Shown: piece after piece, positions 43,855 to 54,231 of the stretch
Layout of the letters: each line of letters starts with the position of its first letter
How positions within the stretch are numbered: position 1 is the stretch's first letter
Sequence record: KF055347
Length of the DNA: 64,000 bases
Origin: Escherichia phage JH2
Reading direction: 5' to 3' (one strand)
Program-made: the position numbers and the translations under genes
The notes under the pieces: model-generated
Seen by the model: the letters and a program-made list of their open reading frames with translations, nothing else
Told to the model about the DNA's origin: nothing
Databases searched by the model: none

Positions 43855-45456
43855 TCAACGTCTAAGCCCCTCATATGGGTTTCCTCTCACTAAGTCTGTA
43901 TGAGCACCCATTGATGGTGGCTTGAATAATTTAACTTCGTTAAGACTGTTGAAAGCATCACTGGTAGCATCCACTTGGTCATCTTTAGTTTTACCATCAC
44001 CACAAAAACCTTCAAGTTCTTGGAAGTAAGCTTCGTTCCAACTACCTCTCAAGACTTTTACAAGTCCAGCTTCAGAAGCAGCAGAAAATCCCGCAAAGCG
44101 GGTAACTTTATCTTTATTTGTTGGTTTAGCTCTTGCGCGATAACCTTTCTCGGCAAGTTTCCTGATGAGGGATGTTGCATAGGATTTACCAGCAGCGCCT
44201 GGGTCTTGAGGGATAAAAATACCAGTTCGCTTACCGTCACTTTCAGCAGTCAAATTAATTTGTGTTTCGACTCCAGAGGGTCTATCTCTAAATCTTACTA
44301 CATCAATGATATAATAGCAACCGTCTTTTTTAGATTTACCCATCTTAACACCCGCTGTCCAGTCTGGGTTAGGGTTAATTTCAGATGGTAAAGTCGCTGC
44401 TAAGTCCCATGCTCTGACATCAAACACATCTTCTGGGAGTGAATCAACAATCTCACACCATTGTCTTTGCCAATAGTTTGAACCTTCTGCACGAGCCTTC
44501 CAGTTACCGAAACGAAGTCTTGCAACGTTTACAGGTGTGTTGTTTTCCAACTTACCACGATATTTAGGCTCTAAGAAGTCAAGAATTGGGTTATCATCAA
44601 TCGTACCAGAGATGAAGGTGTATGTCTGAGGAATCTCAAGAGGGAACATTTCAAGAATCTTGTCTCTTTCCCAATCAGAAACCATCACACCATCATTCAT
44701 AACATACCAACGAATACGACCACACTTCTCAGGGTCTGGGTAACCTTCTTCATCTAAGAAGGGTTCTACCCAATCATAAATGAAGTGGTCTCTATCTGGG
44801 TTCATAGAAATCTTCATGTATGAGTCACCTTCAGCACCGGAACGTAGACGGGTCTGTAGGTATGAAATCTGTGAAGCAGAGAAGTGTGTACCTTCGTCAA
44901 AGTAGATAGCTGAGTATTCAATACCCTGATGACCTTCAGCGTGCTTTTCAAGTTCTAGGTAGGTGAACTTAATAGTTGCCCCAGAAGGGAATGTGATAGT
45001 CATCTTCTGCTCGTGAGGAACCCCACCAAACTTACCAAATAGTTTCTTTGCAGCAGGCCATAAACCACCTTGTAACTGTGTTGTATTTCGACGGAAATAT
45101 ACAGCATTATAGTTAGGGTCTTCAATAAACCTTAAAGAGTCCATTAACAATGCAGCAGTTTTACCAGCACCAGCAGCACCACCATATAAAACCAAGTCAG
45201 CATTAGTATTTAAAAACACCTCTTGAGAACCCGGCTGAGGGGCTACATAGTTCTTATCAGTCATCAATTTGAAGATAAGTCTAACTTGGTCTGGTGTATA
45301 TCTTAATAAAGTCAGAATTTGAGTTGGAAGGAATTTAGAGGGGTCTTTACCGAATGATTTGATAATTTCTTTTACTTCATCAGAAAGCCCCAACTCTCCA
45401 GCTAGGACTTTCCTAACATCTTCCACTCGCTTCTGCTTAACAGCATTTAAGTCCAT
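43855..45456 (-). CDS. terminase large subunit
   Basis: Walker A LVLYGGAAGAGKTAAL, Walker B-like IYFDEGTHF, C-terminal RNase H-like nuclease region; start trimmed to MDLNAVK... after GGAGGTG. Confidence 0.88.
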   Translation of the reverse strand: MDLNAVKQKRVEDVRKVLAGELGLSDEVKEIIKSFGKDPSKFLPTQILTLLRYTPDQVRLIFKLMTDKNYVAPQPGSQEVFLNTNADLVLYGGAAGAGKTAALLMDSLRFIEDPNYNAVYFRRNTTQLQGGLWPAAKKLFGKFGGVPHEQKMTITFPSGATIKFTYLELEKHAEGHQGIEYSAIYFDEGTHFSASQISYLQTRLRSGAEGDSYMKISMNPDRDHFIYDWVEPFLDEEGYPDPEKCGRIRWYVMNDGVMVSDWERDKILEMFPLEIPQTYTFISGTIDDNPILDFLEPKYRGKLENNTPVNVARLRFGNWKARAEGSNYWQRQWCEIVDSLPEDVFDVRAWDLAATLPSEINPNPDWTAGVKMGKSKKDGCYYIIDVVRFRDRPSGVETQINLTAESDGKRTGIFIPQDPGAAGKSYATSLIRKLAEKGYRARAKPTNKDKVTRFAGFSAASEAGLVKVLRGSWNEAYFQELEGFCGDGKTKDDQVDATSDAFNSLNEVKLFKPPSMGAHTDLVRGNPYEGLRR

Positions 45457-45477
45457 TAAGCACCTCCGCAAATAGAA

Positions 45478-45678
45478 TTATTCAGAGTCTGTAGCAGTCT
45501 CTTCTTTCTTAACTTCGAACTTTGCATCAACAGCATCAAGAAGTGCATCCATAGAGGCTTCTTTAATATCAATACCTGTTGCTACAGATAATCTGTCTGC
45601 AATTGCCATGATAGTATTCTGCATAAACACTAACTTCTTGTTAGCTTCATAAAGTTCTTTATAAACGTTCTCGCTCAT
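45478..45678 (-). CDS. hypothetical protein upstream of terminase
   Basis: 66 aa ORF with GGAGAAAAC RBS; too small to call a small terminase subunit. Confidence 0.45.
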   Translation of the reverse strand: MSENVYKELYEANKKLVFMQNTIMAIADRLSVATGIDIKEASMDALLDAVDAKFEVKKEETATDSE

Positions 45679-45710
45679 TATGTTTTCTCCAAATAATTAA
45701 TTATGTTTCC

Positions 45711-45738
45711 CCTTAAAAAAGACGGCACAGAGACCGTC
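45711..45738 (-). terminator. rho-independent terminator-like hairpin at 3' end of tRNA array (minus strand)
   Basis: Minus-strand hairpin GACGGUCUCUGUGCCGUC followed by UUUUUUAAGG. Confidence 0.5.
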
Positions 45739-45900
45739 AAGGAGAAACCACAATGTACGTCAGAGACATACTGTATAAGTCTTCTTATAAAGTATAACTC
45801 TGTAAAAAAGCCCTGTCTAAAAATACTCTTCGGTAGCGAAAGGAAGAATACTTATAGCAGGGCATTATTATTATTTTAATTGAGAGAGAGTAAAATAACT

Positions 45901-45976
45901 TGGAGAATCCGAAGGGACTCGAACCCTTATAAACCTGTTTTGCAGACAGGCACATATCCATTTCTGTCACGGATTC
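45901..45976 (-). tRNA. tRNA-Cys (anticodon GCA)
   Basis: Cloverleaf read by eye: CCA encoded, T-arm AAGGG/CCCTT with TTCGAGT loop, anticodon loop CUGCAAA, acceptor 7 bp. Confidence 0.7.
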
Positions 45977-45980
45977 AAAT

Positions 45981-46073
45981 TGGAGGAAGATACCAGACTT
46001 GAACTGGTACACCGATTTCTCAGCTACTGGCAGTTTAGCAAACTGCTCCCTTACCTTTTAGGGTTAATCTTCC
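45981..46073 (-). tRNA. tRNA-Ser (anticodon GCT), long variable arm
   Basis: T-arm ACCAG/CTGGT, anticodon arm GCAGT-UUGCUAA-ACUGC, ~21-nt variable arm, perfect 7-bp acceptor. Confidence 0.7.
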
Positions 46074-46074
46074 A

Positions 46075-46809
46075 TTATTTCTGTAATGCGTTCTTCATTT
46101 CTGGTGTTGCAATAGTGTCAATCACACCAGTTTTACAAGCATCATCAAACCAGTCTGGTAAGATACCTGCTAAGAACCCATTGATATTCGTTTTAAGGTA
46201 CTCTGCAATAAGGGCAGCTTCTTCTTCAATCATCTGCACAACTTCATCTGCATAAGCTGTAATCTTTGAGATACCTTCATTAATCTTGCTAACAGCTTGG
46301 TTAGCTAAATCAGAAATAGTATCAAGACCTTCATCAATAGCATCTTGTAAGTCACTTAATACACCATTAACACCATCTAGTGCGCTGTTAATTGTGTCAA
46401 TAGCTTTTTGACCATACTCTGTAGCAACACCCATAATACCACTAAATGGTGTACAACCGACTTGCTCTCCTGCTGCACCCATAACATTGGAATACCCCTT
46501 TGCTACCTGCATACGTGATGAAAACTCATCAATAGACTTTTGACCATAGTCTGTTAGGGTCTTAGTAGTTGCTGTAGTGCTTGTAAGGCTTGTTGTAAAG
46601 CTGTTTAGAAGGGCTGTTGTGAGTCCAGCAGCAACAAGTTTATCCTTTATTGTAGGGTCTGCTACAGAGCTAATAGAGCTTACAAGTGATGTAGAGGCAG
46701 CTACGGTTCCACCGAGAACTGCTGCACCAGTAATAAGGGGATTAGAAAACCCTCTACCGGTTTTTAAGAGATTAAAAATCTCCTTACCTTGTTCTGTCAT
46801 CTCTTTCAT
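46075..46809 (-). CDS. hypothetical Ala/Ser/Thr-rich protein embedded in tRNA array
   Basis: ORF trimmed to MKEMTEQ... after AAAGGTG to avoid overlapping the upstream tRNA. Confidence 0.5.
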   Translation of the reverse strand: MKEMTEQGKEIFNLLKTGRGFSNPLITGAAVLGGTVAASTSLVSSISSVADPTIKDKLVAAGLTTALLNSFTTSLTSTTATTKTLTDYGQKSIDEFSSRMQVAKGYSNVMGAAGEQVGCTPFSGIMGVATEYGQKAIDTINSALDGVNGVLSDLQDAIDEGLDTISDLANQAVSKINEGISKITAYADEVVQMIEEEAALIAEYLKTNINGFLAGILPDWFDDACKTGVIDTIATPEMKNALQK

Positions 46810-46825
46810 TAAGCACCTTTGAAAT

Positions 46826-46902
46826 TGGTAGTCCAGTGGGATTTGAACCCTCTTCTCATGTTTTTCAGACACGCGCTTTAACCATATAAGCTACTTGGAC
46901 TG
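46826..46902 (-). tRNA. tRNA-Phe (anticodon GAA)
   Basis: Anticodon arm CGUGU-CUGAAAA-ACAUG; T-loop UUCAAAU; T-stem and acceptor each carry one mismatch, ends approximate. Confidence 0.6.
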
Positions 46903-46907
46903 TAAAT

Positions 46908-46983
46908 TGGGGTGACCTACGGGATTTGAACCCGTATAGACCATGTTCACAGCATGGGTCATTACCTTTTATGATAAGGCCAC
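46908..46983 (-). tRNA. tRNA-His (anticodon GTG)
   Basis: Perfect T-arm ACGGG/CCCGU, anticodon loop with GUG, 76 nt. Confidence 0.7.
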
Positions 46984-47014
46984 ATTTAAGGACTCTCGTA
47001 AGAACCCTTAGAAG

Positions 47015-47090
47015 TGGCAGCGGCATAAGGATTTGAACCTTAATAAGACAGCTTCAGAGACTGCTGCATTGCCAGTTATGCTATACCGCT
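47015..47090 (-). tRNA. tRNA-Gln (anticodon CTG)
   Basis: T-arm TAAGG/CCTTA, D-arm GCAT/ATGC, anticodon stem with two G.U pairs, loop CUCUGAA. Confidence 0.6.
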
Positions 47091-47095
47091 AAATT

Positions 47096-47174
47096 TGGTA
47101 CTCCATATCGGATTCGAACCGATACATAACACAGATTTTAAGTCTGGCCTCTCTGCCAATTGGAGTAATGGAGC
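47096..47174 (-). tRNA. tRNA-Leu (anticodon TAA), atypical short variable region
   Basis: Perfect T-arm; anticodon loop CUUAAAA; ~7-nt variable region instead of a long arm, so identity is tentative. Confidence 0.5.
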
Positions 47175-47176
47175 AT

Positions 47177-47252
47177 TGGCGGGGGATGTTGGAATTGAAC
47201 CAACTTCTTCGATTTCAAAGACCGAGGTTTTAACCTTGTAAACTAATCCCCT
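47177..47252 (-). tRNA. tRNA-Gln (anticodon TTG)
   Basis: Perfect T-arm GTTGG/CCAAC; anticodon loop CUUUGAA. Confidence 0.6.
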
Positions 47253-47260
47253 TTAAATCT

Positions 47261-47818
47261 TTACTTTCTCAGTGGATGAATAAAGAATGCCAACATAACT
47301 CTTTCCCTTGAGAATGCTCTTTCTTCTGGGACAACACTTTTTAGTTTCCACCCAACATAAATTCTCCAGTAAAATTGTTTACCAAAGACTTTGATTGATG
47401 GGACAAAAGCGAATAATCCCCAAGCATTGCTGTTCCACATTAGGAGATAACCAGTCTGATTATCTTCAGGGTCAGAACTTACGTTGATATTACCTTTCCA
47501 CTTAGTAACATCTTTTACATCTCTTCCTAATACATGGTAAGAGAAGTTATAAGCTTTGTTTCTCCAGAGCCATCCAACTCTCTGCAAATAGACACCAAGC
47601 TTACCAATCTTTCTAATCTTAGCCCATCGTTTAATGTGACCTTCATCACCATCAATAGGGTTGTCATATGTCTCCATCCATCTGAATCCAAAAGGTAGAT
47701 GTCCTTTCTTCTCACTATAGAATGGAACTACAAAAGGTGCTAAGATAACTGCTAAGGTTGCTGCCAATGGGTCTAACAAAGCTAGGAAAATCCATGAAGC
47801 ATACTTCAAATATCTCAT
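47261..47818 (-). CDS. hypothetical membrane protein embedded in tRNA array
   Basis: 185 aa, N-terminal TM helices (WIFLALLDPLAATLAVILAPFVVPF); AAGAGG RBS. Confidence 0.5.
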   Translation of the reverse strand: MRYLKYASWIFLALLDPLAATLAVILAPFVVPFYSEKKGHLPFGFRWMETYDNPIDGDEGHIKRWAKIRKIGKLGVYLQRVGWLWRNKAYNFSYHVLGRDVKDVTKWKGNINVSSDPEDNQTGYLLMWNSNAWGLFAFVPSIKVFGKQFYWRIYVGWKLKSVVPEERAFSRERVMLAFFIHPLRK

Positions 47819-47830
47819 TTAAATAGCCTC

Positions 47831-47906
47831 TTTAAATTGGTGCAGGATAAGGGATTCGAACCCCTATTAACAGCTTCGTAGACTGTTGCTCTATCCATTT
47901 GAACTA
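47831..47906 (-). tRNA. tRNA-Arg (anticodon ACG)
   Basis: T-arm with TTCGAAT loop; anticodon loop CUACGAA; acceptor 7 bp. Confidence 0.65.
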
Positions 47907-47911
47907 ATCCT

Positions 47912-47989
47912 GCAAAATTGGTGTTCCAAGACGGATTCGAACCGTCACTAATACAAGGTTTGAGCTTGCATCCTCTGCCAATTGGGATA
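47912..47989 (-). tRNA. tRNA-Leu (anticodon CAA), atypical short variable region
   Basis: Perfect T-arm GACGG/CCGTC; anticodon loop CUCAAAC; 78 nt without long extra arm. Confidence 0.5.
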
Positions 47990-47990
47990 C

Positions 47991-48065
47991 TGGAACGTGG
48001 TACTCACTAAAGGACTTGAACCTTTTTCTTCATCTTGTAAGGGTGATGTTTTACCATATAAACTA
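47991..48065 (-). tRNA. tRNA-Val (anticodon TAC)
   Basis: Perfect T-arm AAAGG/CCTTT; anticodon loop CUUACAA. Confidence 0.65.
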
Positions 48066-48160
48066 AGCGAGTATGAAAGAGGTCTGAAGTTGTGCCGCTA
48101 ACTCAACTCCGTGGAATTTGTTACGGTCTTCAGTTGACACCAGCGGTCTTTCACTTGACC

Positions 48161-48236
48161 TCTGAATTGGTGCTCCCACAAGGATTCGAACCCTGATAAG
48201 TTGCTTACAAGGCAACCGTAATAGCCAATTATACGA
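48161..48236 (-). tRNA. tRNA-Thr (anticodon TGT)
   Basis: Perfect anticodon stem GTTGC/GCAAC; loop CUUGUAA. Confidence 0.7.
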
Positions 48237-48243
48237 TAGGAGC

Positions 48244-48318
48244 ATTAATTTGGAGCATCCAGAGGGAATCGAACCCTCAACCTCAGTTTGGAAGACTGTA
48301 ATTTTCCCGTTTAAACTA
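48244..48318 (-). tRNA. tRNA-Gly (anticodon TCC)
   Basis: Perfect T-arm GAGGG/CCCTC and perfect acceptor GCATCCA/TGGATGC; anticodon loop CUUCCAA. Confidence 0.7.
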
Positions 48319-48324
48319 TGGATG

Positions 48325-48400
48325 CACTAATTGGTGGAGTCACTGAGAATTGAACTCAGTTCCCGAGTTTGCAAAACTCGAATTTTAACCATATAAACTA
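48325..48400 (-). tRNA. tRNA-Ala (anticodon TGC)
   Basis: Perfect T-arm CTGAG/CTCAG and anticodon stem CGAGT/ACTCG; loop UUUGCAA. Confidence 0.7.
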
Positions 48401-48406
48401 TGACCC

Positions 48407-48482
48407 CAATGTTTGGTGCAGGTGGAGGGAATTGAACCCATCGTCTTACTGATTAAGAGTCAGCCGCATAACCATTTTGCTA
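48407..48482 (-). tRNA. tRNA-Lys (anticodon CTT)
   Basis: Perfect acceptor GCAGGTG/CACCTGC; anticodon loop CUCUUAA; weak T-stem; paralog of the tRNA at 49729. Confidence 0.6.
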
Positions 48483-48489
48483 CACCTGC

Positions 48490-48567
48490 ATTAATTTGGT
48501 AGGAGACAAGGGATTCGAACCCTCAAACACCAACTTCTAAGGATGGTAGGTTTACCAATTACCGTCA
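48490..48567 (-). tRNA. tRNA-Leu (anticodon TAG), atypical
   Basis: T-arm AAGGG/CCCTC; anticodon loop CUUAGAA; acceptor pairing needs 2 extra nt near the D-arm; no long variable arm. Confidence 0.5.
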
Positions 48568-48829
48568 ATCTCCCATTAAATCTTTTTAGAGAACTTCTAA
48601 GAACCTAAGCAACAAGGTTCCACAACAAGCTGTAATAACCTTAGAAGCCCTCTAAAAAGACCTAAATTGGTCTTTGCATAGTCTTGTTTAATCCGGTGAC
48701 TAGAACCTTTGGAGAGCTTGATATTATCTCTTCTCCGTGACACCTACTAGGTGCTTTATCAGTGTGTACGACAATACACGAGGGATACCAAAGCAACATC
48801 CGAATGAAGCTTGGCTTTAAATCTTATTA

Positions 48830-48919
48830 GGCGGTAAGTAAAGGAGTCGAACCCTCACCGTATCTCTACAGTGGCAACAGTTTTCAAGACTGTTTGGCTG
48901 CCATTAGCCGCTACCTACC
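48830..48919 (-). tRNA. tRNA-Ser (anticodon TGA), long variable arm
   Basis: Perfect anticodon stem ACAGT/ACTGT with loop CUUGAAA; ~20-nt variable arm; CCA only partly encoded. Confidence 0.6.
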
Positions 48920-48932
48920 CCTAATAAGACTT

Positions 48933-49015
48933 TGGCATGGGACGGAGGAGTTGAACCCCTTTGAAACGGTTTTGGAGGCCGTTGCTCATGCCTTAGAGTC
49001 TTAACATCGTCCCAC
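48933..49015 (-). tRNA. tRNA-Trp (anticodon CCA), with ~7 extra nt between D-arm and acceptor
   Basis: Anticodon arm ACGGC-CUCCAAA-ACCGU; acceptor strands pair only if the gene is ~83 nt. Confidence 0.5.
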
Positions 49016-49157
49016 ACTATAATTCGAAGCTTACCGTATTTTCGCAACACTGTAAAGCCCCTTCTCAGATTATTTACATGTTCTGGAAAACATGAGATAC
49101 AGACCACCTCCTTACACGGAGACCCGATAAGGTCGTCTAAGCAATCTGCTAACTATT

Positions 49158-49234
49158 TGGCACACCCTACAGGATTCGAACCTGTAACTCAATGATTAGA
49201 AGTCATTTGCTCTGTCCAGTTGAACTAAGGGTGC
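49158..49234 (-). tRNA. tRNA-Arg (anticodon TCT)
   Basis: Perfect T-arm ACAGG/CCTGT and anticodon stem AATGA/TCATT; loop CUUCUAA. Confidence 0.7.
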
Positions 49235-49570
49235 ATTAATCTTTAAAGACTCTCTTAGAAAGCCCTTAAAGATGCCCACCTTATTAATCATACCGTGGGC
49301 GAGTACGCCAAATTCTTTGATGAGGGATTGGAAGACCTCACTGGTGTTTAGCCTATCAAGCTACTGCCAGAAAAACATTGTCGTTTGCATTTATTTTAAA
49401 TTTGCAAAATAGACGCTACGCAACGAAAACTATTCAGAATATGTACAACAAATTTCCCCACATTGTGTTACGTCTAACGCTCATGTATTGGTGTTTGAAT
49501 TATACATATTATGAAGTATTTTAGTTACTATAAAGTGGTCACATCTCAATGTCAACAACTTTATTGAAAT

Positions 49571-49645
49571 TGGTTGTAGGTGAGGGTATCGAACCCTCTT
49601 CTAACGGTTATCAGCCGTTTGCATTACCATTTATGCTAACCCACA
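49571..49645 (-). tRNA. tRNA-Ile (anticodon GAT)
   Basis: Perfect T-arm GAGGG/CCCTC and anticodon stem AACGG/CCGTT; loop CUGAUAA. Confidence 0.7.
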
Positions 49646-49647
49646 AT

Positions 49648-49724
49648 TGGAGGTTCAGATGGGAATCGAACCCACATTCATAGGGCTTATGAAACCCTTG
49701 CATTACCTTATCTGCGACTGAACC
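49648..49724 (-). tRNA. tRNA-Met (anticodon CAT)
   Basis: Perfect acceptor GGTTCAG/CTGAACC; anticodon loop UUCAUAA. Confidence 0.6.
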
Positions 49725-49728
49725 ATAT

Positions 49729-49804
49729 TGGTAGAAGTGGAGGGATTCGAACCCATCGCCTGTCAGATTAAAAGTCTGCCGCATCACCATTCTGCTACAC
49801 TTCC
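49729..49804 (-). tRNA. tRNA-Lys (anticodon TTT)
   Basis: Paralog of the tRNA at 48407 with the same atypical T-stem; anticodon loop CUUUUAA. Confidence 0.6.
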
Positions 49805-49810
49805 ATTAAA

Positions 49811-49950
49811 TTATCTTTGTAGATAAGCTACCCAGACTTGCTTAAGGTCTGTAGCGATGTGCTTTGTTGGGTTTAAATCTAGAATTTACCCTTTCACCCT
49901 TTGTGGTCGCATACTCACAGGTAAGCTTAATAACTTATCTACAAAGATAA
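49811..49950 (-). ncRNA. candidate structured ncRNA closed by a perfect 17-bp long-range stem
   Basis: TTATCTTTGTAGATAAG (49811-49827) is the exact reverse complement of CTTATCTACAAAGATAA (49934-49950), enclosing 106 nt with internal hairpins; no ORF or tRNA. Confidence 0.35.
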
Positions 49951-49953
49951 TTA

Positions 49954-50084
49954 CCAGACCGTTGTTTATCATCTTAAGTGCTACCATTACACCAACTCGA
50001 CATCTGCCGAGTGAAGGAATCGAACCTTCGCCTTTTCTTTACCGAGAAATAGATTGTTTAAGTTTTGCTGTAAACGGTCTTCTG
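49954..50084 (-). ncRNA. candidate Y RNA-like ncRNA with circularly permuted tRNA-like module (YrlA-type)
   Basis: Minus-strand RNA: closing stem CAGAAGACCGUU...AACGGUCUGG; internal canonical T-arm GAAGG-UUCGAUU-CCUUC; acceptor-like stem CUCGGC-AGAU-GUCGAG capped by a tetraloop; D-arm-like GUG-UAAUGGUAG-CAC; no anticodon arm. Confidence 0.45.
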
Positions 50085-50097
50085 TAAATTTGTTGAG

Positions 50098-50174
50098 CCA
50101 GACCAAGTTTTAAATTTTTTCAAAATTAAATTGGCTTGAAAATATCATACGTACTTGCTGAATTTGGTCTTCTG
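50098..50174 (-). ncRNA. structured intergenic element with the same closing stem (CCAGACC / GGTCTTCTG family)
   Basis: Terminal inverted repeat CCAGACCAA ... TTGGTCTTCTG as in the 49954-50084 element; AT-rich interior. Confidence 0.3.
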
Positions 50175-50261
50175 CTCCTTTAAAGAATACTCGTAAGAAC
50201 TCTTTAAGGGAGGGGCTAAATAGCCCTCTCAAAACATCATCTTGAAATACTTATTATAATT

Positions 50262-50339
50262 TGGCGGTTACGAAGGGATTTGAACCCTCATCATCTCCCG
50301 TGACAGGGGAGTATTTTAACCAGATTAAACTACATAACC
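50262..50339 (-). tRNA. tRNA-Asp (anticodon GTC)
   Basis: Perfect anticodon stem CTCCC/GGGAG; loop CUGUCAC. Confidence 0.65.
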
Positions 50340-50345
50340 TTTATT

Positions 50346-50433
50346 TGGTGTGCCGTGTAGGAGTCGAACCTACCGAGTCTCAATGACAAGGGATTTACAG
50401 TCCCCACCGCTACCATCTACGGGATAACGACAC
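50346..50433 (-). tRNA. tRNA-Tyr (anticodon GTA), long variable arm
   Basis: Perfect T-arm GTAGG/CCTAC; anticodon loop CUGUAAA; ~15-nt variable arm. Confidence 0.6.
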
Positions 50434-50493
50434 ATTTTATTTTCTATTCAGGCTAAGGACTTGCACCTTACAAATCGGTGAGCAATCGCTTCT

Positions 50494-50570
50494 CTCCTAA
50501 ATTTGGCGGTTAGTCAGGGATTCGAACCCTGTGCCATTCGCTTAACAGGCGACCGCACATACCTTATGTG
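50494..50570 (-). tRNA. tRNA-Asn (anticodon GTT)
   Basis: Perfect T-arm CAGGG/CCCTG; anticodon loop CUGUUAA. Confidence 0.65.
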
Positions 50571-50591
50571 CTTCCTAACCTTAATACATTG

Positions 50592-50651
50592 CCAGACCGT
50601 GTTTTTTCTTTTATCCGCAAAAAGTAGTTTGTTGCTGCATACGGTCTTCTG
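50592..50651 (-). ncRNA. structured intergenic element (CCAGACC / GGTCTTCTG family)
   Basis: GCCAGACCGT ... ACGGTCTTCTG terminal inverted repeat enclosing ~45 nt with an internal hairpin. Confidence 0.3.
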
Positions 50652-50657
50652 CAAAAT

Positions 50658-50733
50658 TGGAGGCGGGTGCAGGAGTCGAACCTGCCGATACCATGCTAAT
50701 GAGACATGTGAGACGCCCTTTCTCTATACCCGC
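50658..50733 (-). tRNA. tRNA with CAT anticodon (Met, initiator or Ile-lysidine type); unusual U37
   Basis: Perfect T-arm GCAGG/CCTGC, D-arm GAGA/TCTC, anticodon loop CUCAUUA. Confidence 0.5.
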
Positions 50734-50745
50734 AATTCTTAATGA

Positions 50746-50818
50746 CCAGACCAAATCTCTTCTTTGTCCGATTTATCTTCAGATGAATAAGATTAAGTTT
50801 GCTGTAATTGGTCTTCTG
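50746..50818 (-). ncRNA. structured intergenic element (CCAGACC / GGTCTTCTG family)
   Basis: CCAGACCAA ... TTGGTCTTCTG terminal inverted repeat as in the other three family members. Confidence 0.3.
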
Positions 50819-50825
50819 TCAAAAC

Positions 50826-50903
50826 TGGCGTTCCAGAAGGGATTTGAACCCTCAAATATCCACTTTGAAAGAGTGGTGACTTTACCATTTTGTCTACTGG
50901 AAC
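50826..50903 (-). tRNA. tRNA-Glu (anticodon TTC)
   Basis: Perfect anticodon stem CCACT/AGTGG with loop CUUUCAA; perfect acceptor GTTCCAG/CTGGAAC. Confidence 0.65.
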
Positions 50904-50910
50904 ATTAATT

Positions 50911-50987
50911 TGGTCTCTGTTGGAGGACTTGAACCTCCGGCCTTACCGCCCCAAACGGAACGCTCTACCAAGCTGAGCTAAACAGAG
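50911..50987 (-). tRNA. tRNA-Pro (anticodon TGG)
   Basis: Perfect T-arm GGAGG/CCTCC and perfect acceptor; anticodon loop UUUGGGG. Confidence 0.65.
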
Positions 50988-51104
50988 ATAAACTTTTCAA
51001 ACTCTATGTAACCACTTTAACATTATTTTTTAGTGGTTGTCAAGAACTTTTTTAAAATATTTTTCAGTATCTTAGAAAAGCTCTCATTTCGTTTCTATGT
51101 AGAA

Positions 51105-51133
51105 CATATTAAAGGGTATCAAACACATTGTCA
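51105..51133 (-). promoter_or_regulatory. sigma70-type promoter heading the tRNA array (TTGACA - 17 nt - TAATAT)
   Basis: Minus strand: TTGACA (plus 51128-51133), 17-nt spacer, TAATAT (plus 51105-51110); the -35 sits in the loop of an inverted repeat AGGGTAT/ATACCCT. Confidence 0.45.
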
Positions 51134-51152
51134 ATACCCTTTTTAAAACTTT

Positions 51153-52568
51153 TTACCAGATGTAACGGTCAATCATTACTGCTTTGAGCATTACGCTGAT
51201 TGGGTCAAACTTCTCACCACCAAGCAGAGCTTTTAAAGTGGCTGGAGAAAACCCTGATACCATTGCTACACCATTATCCTTAACAGACACTTCGCAAGTA
51301 CCATTACGGTTTGCTAAGTACCAGAATACTAGTTGTGGCATTTCATATCCAGCTTTTTTGTACTTACTCTGAATTGCTTCAAAGTTTGTACGACCGTTAG
51401 CTCCATCAACCTGATTGAACTCCATATCGGAGAAGATGATAAGCTTACTTGGCATATCTTTCTGAGTCAAGTTGTTTCTCTTACCTATTTCAAGAATACG
51501 GTCAAAAGCTGCTTGTAAGTTAGTTGAACCATATTCAACATGACGCATTACCTGACGATGACGGTTTCGTAAATCGCCACTCAGTTCAATGAAGTGAGGG
51601 TTTGTTGAATAAACCATTAACTCATTCTTAAAGCAGCCTGTATTGCGTTCTGCTACATACAAGGCAAGTGATACACCAATATCAAGGGCAGTGATTGAAC
51701 CAAGATTCACCCAAGACATTGAGCTTGAAACATCAGTCATACACAAGATGTTTTCACCTTCTGCCATCCAGTTTGGTAGTGCTTTCCACTGCTCATTAGC
51801 AACATCTGCATTACCATACTTAATAGATTTAATCACATCGTATGGGTAAACAGCACCAGCGTTAATCTTAGCCTCACCTTTTGAGAGTGACTCGATGTAA
51901 GCTTTGTAACGTTCCCCATCTTTACGGTTAAAGAGCTTTTGGTAACGCGCAGCAGCGAGTGAAGGAATCTTGCTGTAGTCAATCTTACCAAACTCATTAG
52001 CAGAGATTTTTTGCTCAACCGTATCAGACAGTGCAGATAACAGTGTGCGATACTCCTTCTCGCTTAAGTTTGCAAACTTACAGAAACGTTTTACAAACTG
52101 TTTGTGGCGTGGTTTTACTCGTGGTAACCACTTAGCTGCTAAACCTGCTGTTGCAGGGTCTAGTAATGCTGCTTCTAAATGTTTGAAGGCGTCTGTCTCA
52201 AAACGAGTACCTACGAAGATTTTGAAGTCATCAAAACGACCAAGCTCTGCAATCTTATCCATAATGCGAAGAACCTGTGTAGGTTCTAAAACCTTATCTT
52301 CAATCGCTTGAAGTAAAACAGTTCGGAAAGCTTTACGCTCACCCATACCTTCTCGTACATCTCGCATATGCAGTAAAATACGAACTGCAACATCAACATC
52401 CTCACGCAAAGCTTTGTAGAACAGGTCTGGTAAGATTTCTACATTGCTACGGCTTGAGCCAGCGGCTTTGTAAAAGTCTACCAGAGCAGACATTGATGAA
52501 GTATGGTTTACAGCACCATTTTCAGTTCGACCTGCATGAAGGTGCGCATGTTTAAATAACTCGCTCAT
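51153..52568 (-). CDS. Ro60/Rsr-like protein (TROVE-like helical N-domain + vWA domain with MIDAS motif)
   Basis: C-terminal vWA with MIDAS DVSSSM (human Ro60 DVSASM, recalled) and LIIFSDMEF (VFIVFTDNETF); upstream GERKAFRTVLLQAI and VYPYDVIKSIKYG resemble Ro60 TROVE segments; GAGAAGAGAG RBS. Confidence 0.55.
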   Translation of the reverse strand: MSELFKHAHLHAGRTENGAVNHTSSMSALVDFYKAAGSSRSNVEILPDLFYKALREDVDVAVRILLHMRDVREGMGERKAFRTVLLQAIEDKVLEPTQVLRIMDKIAELGRFDDFKIFVGTRFETDAFKHLEAALLDPATAGLAAKWLPRVKPRHKQFVKRFCKFANLSEKEYRTLLSALSDTVEQKISANEFGKIDYSKIPSLAAARYQKLFNRKDGERYKAYIESLSKGEAKINAGAVYPYDVIKSIKYGNADVANEQWKALPNWMAEGENILCMTDVSSSMSWVNLGSITALDIGVSLALYVAERNTGCFKNELMVYSTNPHFIELSGDLRNRHRQVMRHVEYGSTNLQAAFDRILEIGKRNNLTQKDMPSKLIIFSDMEFNQVDGANGRTNFEAIQSKYKKAGYEMPQLVFWYLANRNGTCEVSVKDNGVAMVSGFSPATLKALLGGEKFDPISVMLKAVMIDRYIW

Positions 52569-52649
52569 ATTTTACTCTCTTCTCTCATTTGTTGTTTGAT
52601 GTGACAGACTTTAGAGCAACTTTGTAGAGTCTGTCAACACCTTTTAAAA

Positions 52650-53021
52650 TTATTTTTTGAGAGTCGCTACAGCAGAGAACGTTGGTTTGTTATCTGTCTG
52701 TTGTTGACCACCATTATCAGGAGTCTTCTTAGTGTCTGCTGCAAGTGCTTTCATCTCACCTGCTGAGTGAGTAAAGATAGTTTTACCGACCTCAATCATG
52801 CTCTTGATGGTTACGTCATCTGTGTTTAACCCGAACTCTGCAAGCTTAGCAGCGTCCCTTGTAACAATCGCCTCAAACAGCTTTGCAGCGAACTCAGCAG
52901 AATTATCAATGGTCAGTTGAGCTTTTACGAGTGAGCTTTTGTTACGAGAACCTTTTGGTCTTCCAGATGGGTTACCAGACTGGCCTTTTTTAAACTGGCC
53001 TTTGTTTGTTCTGTTTTTCAT
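52650..53021 (-). CDS. putative DNA-binding protein (possible small terminase subunit)
   Basis: Basic N-terminus with GQSGNPSGRPKGSRNK, a motif common in phage small-terminase-like proteins; first gene of the rightward-region minus operon. Confidence 0.4.
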   Translation of the reverse strand: MKNRTNKGQFKKGQSGNPSGRPKGSRNKSSLVKAQLTIDNSAEFAAKLFEAIVTRDAAKLAEFGLNTDDVTIKSMIEVGKTIFTHSAGEMKALAADTKKTPDNGGQQQTDNKPTFSAVATLKK

Positions 53022-53270
53022 TGGTATGCCTCTTATAAGACCTCTTAAAAGGCTTTTAAGATAAAAGATAGATATCCAGAAAGATATCTGTTTAAATAGC
53101 CTTTTTAGAGGAACCTTTTAAGTTATCTTCTAAGTATTTATAAGCCTACACCTTGTCAAGTCCTTTGTCAACAACTTTTTTAACTTGCAATAGTTCTTGA
53201 CTTGTTGTATGGATTACTGTACCATCTTACTTAAAGCTGTAGGTCTGCCTTGTTCTACAAAGGAGACTTA

Positions 53271-53432
53271 ATGAGAAAATCAAACAACCCGAAGAAAGGT
53301 AAAAATACCAATCACTGTAAGGAATCAAAAAGGGTAGAGTTACTCTACTATTCATCCTCTGAAATTGGTCTGTACCTGTTCTTTCAAAATTACAGAAGAC
53401 AAGAGGATTATCTATGTGTAGTTCCCAATTAG
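53271..53432 (+). CDS. hypothetical small protein
   Basis: ATG after AAGGAGA; overlaps next ORF start by ~19 nt, so uncertain. Confidence 0.3.
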   Translation: MRKSNNPKKGKNTNHCKESKRVELLYYSSSEIGLYLFFQNYRRQEDYLCVVPN

Positions 53433-53647
53433 AAATCGCAGATATTATAGATTTATATAAAACTGCAAAGAGTCATGGCTATATAACCTCAATTGGAAAG
53501 AATAGTCACTACGATGCTTTGACTGGAATGTATTTCAGGGCAATGGCTCAATCTAGTGAACAACACTTAATGGTTTCTTCCAGTGAGTTTACTTCGTTTC
53601 TCTATTGCAGCAAAATCATAAATCGCAGGAGAACTGAAAAATGTTAA
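53414..53647 (+). CDS. hypothetical protein
   Basis: 77 aa ORF, GAGGA RBS. Confidence 0.4.
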   Translation: MCSSQLEIADIIDLYKTAKSHGYITSIGKNSHYDALTGMYFRAMAQSSEQHLMVSSSEFTSFLYCSKIINRRRTEKC

Positions 53648-54231
53648 CAGTAAGTTTTAATTATAATAGTGATGGCTCTGTATCAATTAATTCACCATAT
53701 GCAAATGACCTATTGAAAGAGCTAGTTAATCAGTGTGATAGAGGTCTTCACTATGTTCCAAATTCTTTCAAGCAGAAGACTATTGCCAATAACTTGATGC
53801 GTGTGACGGTTACAACATCAAACCCAAACTATGACATTGATAGTGAAAGTCCTTATTCTTTAGTGGCTCTTGGTGAATGTAGTCAATTCAAACTTGTATG
53901 CCACGACTCAGAAACATTCCTTAAGGTATTTTCAAACCTTATTCACAATAATAAGTATGGGTATGTTGATGGTAGTGCAAACTTCTATCCAGCGAACTAT
54001 ACCTGTCTGTTGATTGATAATATGAGAAGTAGCAAGCAAGAGCCTACAGAGATTTCATTTGATGTGAACTCTAGTCCAGACGCAGAAACAAGCAATAACT
54101 TTGATATGAGTTACGCATTATCACTTAGTAAGAAATCCGAGTTCATTGATTATGTCAATGGATTTGGTTTTAAGTTTGACGAGAGCATGAATCTCAAAAA
54201 GCTTAAGAACCTACTTAAGACCAAAGCTTAA
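53641..54231 (+). CDS. hypothetical protein
   Basis: 196 aa ORF with AGGAGAA RBS. Confidence 0.5.
   Translation: MLTVSFNYNSDGSVSINSPYANDLLKELVNQCDRGLHYVPNSFKQKTIANNLMRVTVTTSNPNYDIDSESPYSLVALGECSQFKLVCHDSETFLKVFSNLIHNNKYGYVDGSANFYPANYTCLLIDNMRSSKQEPTEISFDVNSSPDAETSNNFDMSYALSLSKKSEFIDYVNGFGFKFDESMNLKKLKNLLKTKA

What the first reader, a model, noticed from the sequence alone, without database searches (positions are those of the whole stretch)
51153..52568. Phage-encoded Ro60/Rsr-like protein beside the tRNA and Y-like RNA cluster
The 471-aa product ends in a vWA domain with a MIDAS motif (ILCMTDVSSSM ... LIIFSDMEF). Its helical N-terminal half has segments (GERKAFRTVLLQAI; VYPYDVIKSIKYG) that align by eye with remembered Ro60 TROVE motifs. 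Ro60 orthologues partner with Y RNAs and act in RNA quality control, so a phage copy next to its tRNA array suggests an RNA surveillance, repair or hijack module.
Basis: partly seen in the sequence, partly recalled or inferred. Interest (0 to 1): 0.8.

Follow-up and report, generated by a model that had tools for sequence, protein, structure and literature searches.

The report
Phage Ro60-like protein with partner RNAs
This Felix O1-type phage encodes a protein predicted to share the ring shape of the RNA-surveillance protein Ro60, and next to it, inside the tRNA gene array, lie four small structured RNAs of an apparently undescribed family that accompanies this protein across very different phages.

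Summary

The RNA partner looks new. Four units on the gene's strand (49951-50821) share a closing helix, an invariant CAGCAA and an unpaired 3' G. One unit encloses a circularly permuted tRNA-like domain, as in bacterial YrlA. A covariance model finds this motif in 47 of 61 unrelated loci, always on the gene strand and mostly within 500 nt of the gene. It also finds it in untrained Listeria, Campylobacter and mycobacteriophage loci. Rfam 15 has no match.

tRNAs, tmRNA, and in Listeria phage RtcB plus an RNA ligase, recur nearby. The likeliest reading is a Ro60/Y-RNA-type RNP acting on tRNA-like RNAs. Binding and function remain untested.

The parts
51153..52568 (-). Gene for the 471-aa DUF2828/DUF7788 protein with a predicted Ro60 fold (helical ring plus vWA)
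51774..52568 (-). N-terminal all-helical half (about res 1-265): DUF2828, the TROVE-like ring by fold only
51156..51761 (-). C-terminal vWA domain (about res 270-471, DUF7788), with MIDAS D279-x-S281-x-S283 (nt 51720-51734), T349 and D381
   Evidence: Pfam DUF7788 E=1.8e-43, VWA_2 sub-threshold; MIDAS residues invariant; 11 of 55 members weakly hit the Ro60-specific vWA model PF25045
52608..52637 (-). Sigma-70-like promoter (TTGACA-18-TAAAGT) about 40 nt upstream of the gene's ATG
   Evidence: Consensus scan. The total count in the region is not above shuffles, so this is suggestive only
51014..51134 (-). Two tandem sigma-70-like promoters (TTGACA-17-TAATAT and TTGACA-18-TAAAGT) between the gene and the first tRNA; probable start of the tRNA/Y-RNA transcription unit
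50743..50821 (-). Y-like unit A (small): UGAC-AGA-AGACCAA-UUA-CAGCAA...UUGGUCU-G-GUCA. It fills the spacer between tRNA-Glu and tRNA-Met
   Evidence: CM R1 38.3 bits, E=1.5e-5
50589..50654 (-). Y-like unit B (small), between tRNA-Met and tRNA-Asn. Its outer stem UUGC/GCAA switches to UUAC/GUAA in relatives
   Evidence: CM R1 40 bits, E=5.7e-6
50095..50177 (-). Y-like unit C (small)
   Evidence: CM R1 32.1 bits, E=5e-4
49951..50087 (-). Y-like unit D (YrlA-like). It has the same basal helix and CAGCAA, and its interior is V arm + T arm + closed acceptor-like hairpin + D arm (a permuted tRNA-like domain)
   Evidence: Fold; descriptor scan; ARAGORN calls the circularly permuted form a tRNA after trimming 3 nt of the V region, with 0 of 200 shuffles called. 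The AS stem covaries in relatives L012 and L014
49805..49950 (-). Fifth, very stable structured RNA directly 3' of unit D. It contains a mini AGAC...GUCUGG hairpin with an AGCAA loop. Its membership in the system is uncertain
   Evidence: MFE -46.4 kcal/mol, z=-5.68, 0 of 200 shuffles as stable
45901..50987 (-). Array of 26 tRNA genes in which units A-D are embedded. These tRNAs are candidate substrates, and their processing probably supplies the machinery that excises units A and B
   Evidence: ARAGORN; Rfam

Best explanation
The gene encodes a divergent Ro60-type RNA-binding protein of the DUF2828/DUF7788 family. It has a helical ring of TROVE-like fold, closed by a vWA domain with an intact metal-binding MIDAS site. 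I propose that it forms ribonucleoprotein particles with phage-encoded Y-RNA-like small RNAs. This window holds four such RNAs, all transcribed within the tRNA array from tandem sigma-70-type promoters just downstream of the gene. Units A and B probably get released when RNase P and the tRNA 3'-end enzymes cut the flanking tRNAs. Each RNA presents a terminal helix, a single-stranded CAGCAA and an unpaired 3' G as the likely protein-recognition site. Unit D adds a circularly permuted tRNA-like domain like that of bacterial YrlA. By analogy with the Ro60/Rsr-Y RNA systems, the particle would bind tRNA-like or misfolded/damaged structured RNAs. It would then channel them to, or shield them from, host enzymes such as PNPase or RNA ligases during infection. 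What is shown: the gene, the domain families, the predicted fold, the RNA motif and its tight genomic linkage to the gene. What is inferred: protein-RNA binding, the maturation route and the biological role.

For: RNA in the window. Four same-strand units share the basal structure, and their outer stems covary.

RNA across loci. CM R1 gives 84 hits at E<=0.1 in 1.2 Mb, all on the gene strand. Of 61 non-Felix loci, 47 have a hit. Of 73 hits in those loci, 44 lie within 500 nt of the gene, a zone holding only 6% of the flanking sequence. The model also hits untrained Listeria, Campylobacter and mycobacteriophage loci directly beside the gene (E 7e-7 to 7e-5).

Non-circular helix test. The bare hexamer CAGCAA is 5-fold enriched in the gene flanks. 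There, 58% of occurrences have a 7-bp closing helix, versus 21% on the opposite strand (Fisher p=6e-12).

tRNA-like versions. The YrlA-like descriptor gives 21 hits on the gene strand and 0-1 in shuffles, in 6 further lineages. The permuted tRNA is recognised by ARAGORN.

Context. tRNAs and tmRNAs lie on the same strand in 27 of 52 loci. RtcB and an RNA ligase lie beside the Listeria-phage homologue. Published precedent exists: Ro60 orthologues have same-strand Y RNAs within 4 kb, including in phages (PMC4201824), and Thermus phage Ro60 binds Yrl RNAs and host PNPase (PMC12135203).
Against: No member matches Pfam TROVE, so the Ro60 relationship of the ring rests on a predicted structure. No Rfam Y-RNA family matches, even at E<=10. 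The conserved motif is CAGCAA, not the GNCGAA(N)G or GGUCCGA motif of known Y RNAs. The single-sequence folding z-scores of the small units are weak (-0.9 to -1.9). The helix covariation count is partly circular, because the units were chosen with a helix-requiring descriptor. Fourteen of 61 loci have no CM hit, including the Aeh1-like phages. This phage has no annotated RtcB, RtcA or RNA ligase. There are no expression, binding or phenotype data.
Confidence: 0.6

Rival explanations
1. The CAGCAA stem-loops are cis-acting elements rather than free partner RNAs. They would be operator or UTR sites through which the protein autoregulates its own mRNA, or transcript stability and processing signals.
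For: In many lineages a single copy sits 25-60 nt after the stop codon or 50-170 nt before the start codon. In KVP40-like phages a weak hit overlaps the start codon (L002/L018 9961-10010, E=0.03), which is the position expected of a translational operator.
Against: Felix-type phages place four copies 0.3-1.2 kb away in a separately promoted tRNA array. Some lineages carry arrays of 7-8 copies (L020, L074). Other copies lie 6-9 kb away beside tmRNA/tRNA-Met genes. Some units contain a full tRNA-like domain, which an operator does not need. Units A and B exactly fill inter-tRNA spacers, so tRNA processing would release them. The two roles are not mutually exclusive.
Confidence: 0.2
2. The particle is primarily an anti-defence device rather than a quality-control or repair factor. 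The tRNA-like Y RNAs would act as decoys for host anticodon nucleases. Alternatively, the RNP would sequester or attenuate host PNPase or other RNases to protect phage tRNAs and transcripts.
For: Thermus phage Ro60 with its Yrl RNAs binds host PNPase and attenuates it (PMC12135203). The gene is co-located with phage tRNA arrays, which from general knowledge are thought to replace host tRNAs lost during infection. A tRNA-mimicking domain is present in unit D. The gene is widespread in large virulent phages.
Against: Nothing in the sequence discriminates this from quality control or repair. The RtcB and RNA ligase neighbours in Listeria phage point to repair rather than inhibition. No defence or anti-defence genes were identified next to the gene here.
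Confidence: 0.25
3. The protein is a generic vWA/MIDAS protein-protein adaptor, for example an assembly co-chaperone. Its resemblance to Ro60 and the neighbouring RNA motif would then be incidental.
For: Only the vWA half has sequence-level family support outside the DUFs. Many records annotate it simply as 'vWFA protein'. MoxR-vWA chaperone pairs exist in phages (PMC7824862).
Against: Full-length structural matches go only to Ro60 proteins, with Z twice that of any isolated vWA domain. No AAA+ MoxR partner is annotated within +-5 kb. The gene-linked, strand-specific RNA motif across distant lineages is hard to explain for a protein with no RNA role.
Confidence: 0.05

Closest known systems
Ro60/Rsr-Y RNA ribonucleoproteins (Xenopus and human Ro60; Deinococcus Rsr-Yrn1-PNPase 'RYPER'; Salmonella rsr-yrlBA-rtcBA)
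   Same: Predicted ring-plus-vWA fold with MIDAS. Small structured RNAs are encoded within about 1.2 kb on the same strand. One RNA has a YrlA-style order of V, T, closed acceptor-like stem and D arms, enclosed by a terminal helix. There are also small RNAs without a tRNA domain, like YrlB. RtcB adjacency is seen in one lineage.
   Different: There is no TROVE sequence signature. The protein is shorter (471 vs about 530 aa). The RNA motif is CAGCAA plus a 3' unpaired G, not GGUCCGA or GNCGAA(N)G. No Rfam Y-RNA match was found. The RNAs are embedded in a 26-tRNA array. Nothing is shown experimentally.
Thermus phage phiLo Ro60 with Yrl1/Yrl2 (PDB 9kop, 9l5y; PMC12135203)
   Different: phiLo Ro60 is a canonical TROVE-domain protein with CGAA-motif Yrl RNAs. 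The present family is DUF2828, at only 14-16% identity to it, and has a different RNA motif.
Mycobacteriophage 'Ro-like RNA binding protein' genes (e.g. Whirlwind gp55)
   Same: True full-length homologues (about 33% identity) that are already named Ro-like. The CAGCAA RNA motif is found directly downstream of the Whirlwind gene.
   Different: They are annotation only. I found no described partner RNA for this DUF2828-type group. The YrlA RNAs reported in mycobacteriophages were sought next to proteins annotated as TROVE (PMC4201824).
Pfam DUF2828 (PF11443) + DUF7788 (PF25043); PHROG 850 'RNA-binding protein'
   Same: The protein is a bona fide member. All 55 aligned relatives match both domains.
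   Different: These entries carry no mechanism and no associated RNA.

Membership tests
DUF2828/DUF7788 protein family (Pfam PF11443 + PF25043) | Matches to both Pfam models above their gathering scores | tested here: met
   102.6 bits (cut-off 29) and 148.8 bits (cut-off 27.1). All 55 of 55 relatives match both
Ro60/TROVE family | TROVE domain sequence signature (Pfam PF05731) | tested here: not met
   No hit at E<=10 for the protein or for any of 55 family members. The family profile against PDB sequences touches Ro60 only in the vWA region, at E=0.45
Ro60/TROVE family | Helical-repeat ring closed by a C-terminal vWA domain (the Ro60 fold) | tested here: met
Ro60/TROVE family | vWA domain with MIDAS motif DxSxS...T...D | tested here: met
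   D279, S281, S283, T349 and D381 are invariant in 55 sequences
Ro60/TROVE family | Ro60-type vWA sequence (Pfam PF25045) | tested here: inconclusive
   Eleven of 55 members hit it weakly (best E=1.7e-4). The window protein itself does not
Ro60/TROVE family | Binds Y RNA and misfolded RNAs; partners with exoribonucleases | not testable with these tools
   Requires RIP/CLIP, EMSA and pull-downs
YrlA-type bacterial Y RNA (Chen et al. 2014) | Encoded within about 4 kb of the Ro60 gene on the same strand | tested here: met
   The units lie 0.33-1.2 kb downstream on the same strand. All 84 CM hits in other loci are on the gene strand
YrlA-type bacterial Y RNA (Chen et al. 2014) | tRNA-like domain with the order V, T arm, closed acceptor-like stem-loop, D arm, enclosed by a 5'/3' terminal helix | tested here: met
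   Met for unit D only: fold, descriptor, and ARAGORN calling the permuted form a tRNA once the V region is trimmed 28->25 nt. Units A-C lack the domain, like YrlB
YrlA-type bacterial Y RNA (Chen et al. 2014) | Conserved 5' GNCGAA(N)G motif (metazoan GGUCCGA) | tested here: not met
   The invariant motif is CAGCA[A/C]. The 3' strand GGUCUGG of the Felix units only resembles GGUCCGA and is not conserved in other lineages
Any Rfam 15 family other than tRNA/tmRNA | Covariance-model match | tested here: not met
   No Y-RNA or other relevant hit at E<=10 in window 45000-54000. At E<=1 in five loci that carry the motif, only tmRNA was found
MoxR-vWA chaperone pair | Adjacent AAA+ MoxR ATPase gene | tested here: not met
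   None is annotated within +-5 kb in close relatives

The most novel reading that the evidence does not exclude
DUF2828/DUF7788 proteins, together with the 'helix-CAGCAA-helix-G' RNAs, form a previously unrecognised and deeply conserved viral ribonucleoprotein class. It would be a sister of Ro60-Y RNA. It occurs in phages of Proteobacteria, Firmicutes, Actinobacteria and Campylobacterota (708 of 50,697 phage records and thousands of metagenomic clusters). Its RNAs range from about 50-nt hairpins to permuted-tRNA chimeras, and they can be matured from tRNA arrays. The system may be a general viral means of managing tRNA and tmRNA integrity during infection.
Probability: 0.55. Interest if true: 0.78.

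Novelty: new variant of a known kind. Interest (0 to 1): 0.66.

Why it matters
Ro60 and Y RNAs are conserved from bacteria to humans and are clinically important autoantigens, yet what they do in prokaryotes and their viruses is poorly understood. If the DUF2828 family is a Ro60-type RNP, a very large 'domain of unknown function' gains a mechanism. That family has about 9,000 clusters at 50% identity and is also present in giant viruses. A new RNA family would be defined, and the number and diversity of Ro-like systems available for study would expand greatly. Felix O1-type phages infect E. coli K-12 and Salmonella, so the system is directly testable. The recurring links to tRNA arrays, tmRNA and RtcB also bear on an open question: why large phages carry their own tRNAs, and how they protect them.

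Tried and rejected
1. A relaxed structure-only descriptor (outer stem + AGA/G loop + any helix) across other lineages was dominated by composition noise and gave no coherent family. I dropped it.

2. A MAFFT alignment of the YrlA-like units across lineages anchored only the 5' half, so I used explicit descriptors with strand and shuffle controls instead of a second CM.

3. A profile-profile comparison with TROVE could not be done. Seeding a search with a Xenopus Ro60 fragment returned only short exon fragments.

4. ARAGORN did not call native unit D, or the untrimmed permuted construct, as a tRNA. It did so only after the variable region was trimmed by 3 nt.

5. Single-protein and family-profile searches of PDB sequences gave no significant Ro60 hit.

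6. The afdb50 library was unavailable.

7. The Burroughs & Aravind 2016 RNA-repair paper and the supplements of two other papers are not held. I therefore could not check whether those authors already count DUF2828 as 'ROT/TROVE'.

8. The promoter scan total is not above shuffles, so individual sites are suggestive only.

9. I considered the motif as an intrinsic terminator and rejected it: the loops are 30-60 nt and A-rich, there is no U-tract, and the single-stranded hexamer is invariant.

Full report
OBSERVATION. The ORF is exactly as described: minus strand, 51153-52568, 471 aa. All four quoted peptide strings are present. The window is a Felix O1-type myovirus (Felixounavirus), 96-97% identical to many Salmonella and Escherichia phages. 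Twenty-six tRNA genes lie on the same strand from 50987 down to 45901, starting 166 nt after the stop codon.

WHAT THE PROTEIN IS. Pfam places residues 275-455 in DUF7788 (E=1.8e-43). The helical half falls in DUF2828 (E=2.9e-29), with a sub-threshold generic vWA match and no TROVE match even at E<=10. PHROG 850 ('RNA-binding protein') matches end to end. The family is very large: 2,835 relatives in the indexed search and 8,966 clusters at 50% identity in the exhaustive profile search. In a 55-sequence alignment the MIDAS residues D279, S281, S283, T349 and D381 are invariant. So is a set of charged residues in the helical half: R40, R69, D70, R72, E77, R78, R111 and K146 (R150 is nearly invariant).

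THIS PART IS NOT NEW. RefSeq records already call the gene 'RNA-binding protein', and others call it 'vWFA protein'. tblastn finds it in 708 of 50,697 phage records. These include 95 mycobacteriophages, where full-length homologues at about 33% identity are annotated 'Ro-like RNA binding protein'. Canonical phage Ro60 proteins and their Y RNAs are published (PMC4201824; PMC12135203). I found no paper linking DUF2828 or Felix O1-type phages with Ro60 or Y RNAs.

THE RNAs IN THE WINDOW. Reading the non-tRNA gaps of the array revealed four units on the gene's strand: A 50743-50821, B 50589-50654, C 50095-50177 and D 49951-50087. All share one basal architecture. A 4-bp outer stem differs in sequence but stays complementary in every copy (UGAC/GUCA, UUGC/GCAA, GAGC/GCUC, UUAC/GUAA). 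Above it is an AGA/G internal loop, then a helix AGACCnn/nnGGUCU, then 2-3 nt followed by CAGCAA.

Units A and B fill inter-tRNA spacers, leaving 3-4 nt on the 5' side and 8 nt on the 3' side. Processing of the flanking tRNAs would therefore release them (inference). Unit D's interior folds into a V arm, a T arm (GAAGG-UUCGAUU-CCUUC), a closed 7-bp acceptor-like hairpin and a D arm (GUGU-AAUGGUA-GCAC). That is the element order described for bacterial YrlA. When unit D is circularly permuted into normal tRNA order, ARAGORN calls it a tRNA once the 28-nt variable region is shortened to 25 nt. The native order is not called, and neither is any of 200 shuffles. The four units are conserved in position across the Felix-type loci fetched. 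Compensatory changes occur in unit B's outer stem and in unit D's acceptor-like stem: ACUCGGC/GUCGAGU, ACCCUUC/GAAGGGU and ACACG/CGUGU. Rfam 15 reports nothing but tRNAs and chance-level hits here, even at E<=10.

THE RNA FOLLOWS THE GENE ACROSS PHAGES. I fetched 80 viral loci encoding relatives at 39-99% identity. A descriptor for the YrlA-like form (closing helix + C[A/U]GCA[A/C] + T arm + closed hairpin) gave 21 hits on the gene strand. The opposite strand gave 3: one real element in a reversed locus and two weak matches. Shuffles gave 0-1. Six non-Felix lineages were among the hits.

The simpler form (closing helix + CAGCA[A/C]) gave 157 hits on the gene strand against 47 on the opposite strand, with shuffles near 30 and 20. 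An alignment of 35 small units shows invariant CAGCA and an invariant unpaired G after the helix. The consensus is A-AGRnnnn-(U)UW-CAGCAA-[A-rich interior]-nnnnYCU-G. The 7-bp helix is 96.7% paired, with 90 double-sided changes. That count is partly circular, because the units were picked with a helix-requiring descriptor.

Three tests avoid that circularity.

(i) A covariance model (R1) searched on both strands of 1.2 Mb returns 84 hits at E<=0.1, and every one is on the gene's strand. Of 61 non-Felix loci, 47 have a hit, and 36 have one within 500 nt of the gene. Of 73 hits in those loci, 44 fall in that zone, which holds only 6% of the flanking sequence.

(ii) Loci from lineages never used in training have hits in the intergenic gap directly abutting the gene: Listeria phage LP-083-2 (28% protein identity), Campylobacter phage F352 and mycobacteriophage Whirlwind. 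E-values range from 7e-7 to 7e-5, and all hits show the helix/CAGCAA/G signature.

(iii) Anchoring on the bare hexamer alone, CAGCAA occurs at 1.57/kb in the gene flanks against 0.32-0.33/kb elsewhere. There, 58% of occurrences have a 7-bp closing helix, against 21% on the opposite strand (Fisher p=5.6e-12).

Rfam has no family matching the motif at E<=1 in five loci that carry it.

CONTEXT. In 27 of 52 non-Felix loci, tRNA or tmRNA genes lie within 10 kb, always on the gene's strand. At least five distinct lineages place the gene within 0.3-4.3 kb of arrays of 6-27 tRNAs. In several large phages, further CAGCAA units sit 6-9 kb downstream beside a phage tmRNA and a tRNA-Met. In the Listeria phage the gene lies between a tRNA array and an RtcB-like ligase plus a second RNA ligase. 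In mycobacteriophage Whirlwind, a band-7 protein and a tRNA lie upstream. In the present phage type no RtcB, RtcA or RNA ligase is annotated; only a polynucleotide kinase and a phosphatase lie about 20 kb away. The gene has its own sigma-70-like promoter, and two more lie between it and the first tRNA. Gene and RNA array therefore look like separate, co-oriented units.

MECHANISM. The best-supported reading is a Ro60/Y-RNA-type particle. The ring protein would recognise the terminal helix, the single-stranded CAGCAA and the bulged G of its dedicated RNAs. The RNP would then act on tRNA-like or damaged/misfolded RNAs during infection, either for quality control and repair or to divert host enzymes such as PNPase, as shown for Thermus phage Ro60 (PMC12135203). 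The fold, the motif and the linkage are shown. Binding, maturation and role are inferred. The main rival is that the motif is a cis-acting operator or UTR element. That reading is favoured by single copies hugging the gene. It is disfavoured by multi-copy arrays, by distal copies in tRNA/tmRNA clusters and by the tRNA-like versions.

VERDICT. The protein identification is already implicit in public annotation and is ordinary. The gene-linked CAGCAA RNA family, including permuted-tRNA members embedded in the tRNA array, appears undescribed. It turns a large DUF into a testable Ro60-like RNP system. I rate this a new variant of a known kind.

Noticed in passing
window 49805-49950 (-): A 146-nt, extremely stable structure (-46.4 kcal/mol, z=-5.68, 0 of 200 shuffles as stable) lies directly 3' of unit D and 5' of tRNA-Lys. 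It is closed by a ~22-bp stem. Inside is a mini hairpin AGAC-CUUAAGCAA-GUCUGG that echoes the Y-like motif.
   Followed up: partly
window 48939-49013 (-): A tRNA-like cloverleaf that ARAGORN does not call (weak Rfam tRNA-Sec hit, E=0.64). It has a 9-nt anticodon loop containing CCA. Trp is the only amino acid missing from the 26 called tRNAs, so this may be an unusual tRNA-Trp or a pseudo-tRNA.
   Followed up: partly
window 48073-48167 (-): A 95-nt spacer between tRNA-Val and tRNA-Thr folds into a stable hairpin (-30.7 kcal/mol, z=-2.86). It contains GAAGACCG-like repeats but no CAGCAA.
   Followed up: no
L033, L048, L049, L051, L064, L077, L078, L081 (5-9 kb downstream of the gene); L079 (upstream): Large phages carrying the DUF2828 gene often encode a tmRNA on the same strand. 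In several of them a tRNA-Met and additional CAGCAA stem-loops sit beside it.
   Followed up: partly
L037 11896-12150: Two tRNA-shaped genes in normal (non-permuted) order. In each, the anticodon loop is replaced by a ~60-nt insert carrying a hairpin and the CAGCA motif. This would be a third way of fusing the Y-module to a tRNA body.
   Followed up: partly
L086 (Listeria phage LP-083-2) 7815-11458: An RtcB-like tRNA-splicing ligase and a putative RNA ligase lie 1.3 and 4 kb downstream of the DUF2828 gene. A tRNA array lies upstream, and three CAGCAA units sit between the array and the gene.
   Followed up: partly
window 46074-46825 and 47253-47837 (-): Two protein-coding ORFs are interspersed within the tRNA array. 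Relatives annotate them as a putative membrane protein and a holin.
   Followed up: no
window 52650-53021 (-): A small, very basic DUF5681 protein (123 aa; KGQFKKGQSGNPSGRPKGSRNK...) lies immediately upstream on the same strand. No DUF5681 gene was listed beside the one non-Felix homologue whose neighbours I examined (KVP40-like phage).
   Followed up: no
BFVD hits: Structural relatives of the protein (DUF2828/DUF7788) occur in giant eukaryotic viruses: Pithovirus, Cafeteria roenbergensis virus, Marseillevirus and Mimiviridae. I did not examine whether they have a partner RNA.
   Followed up: no
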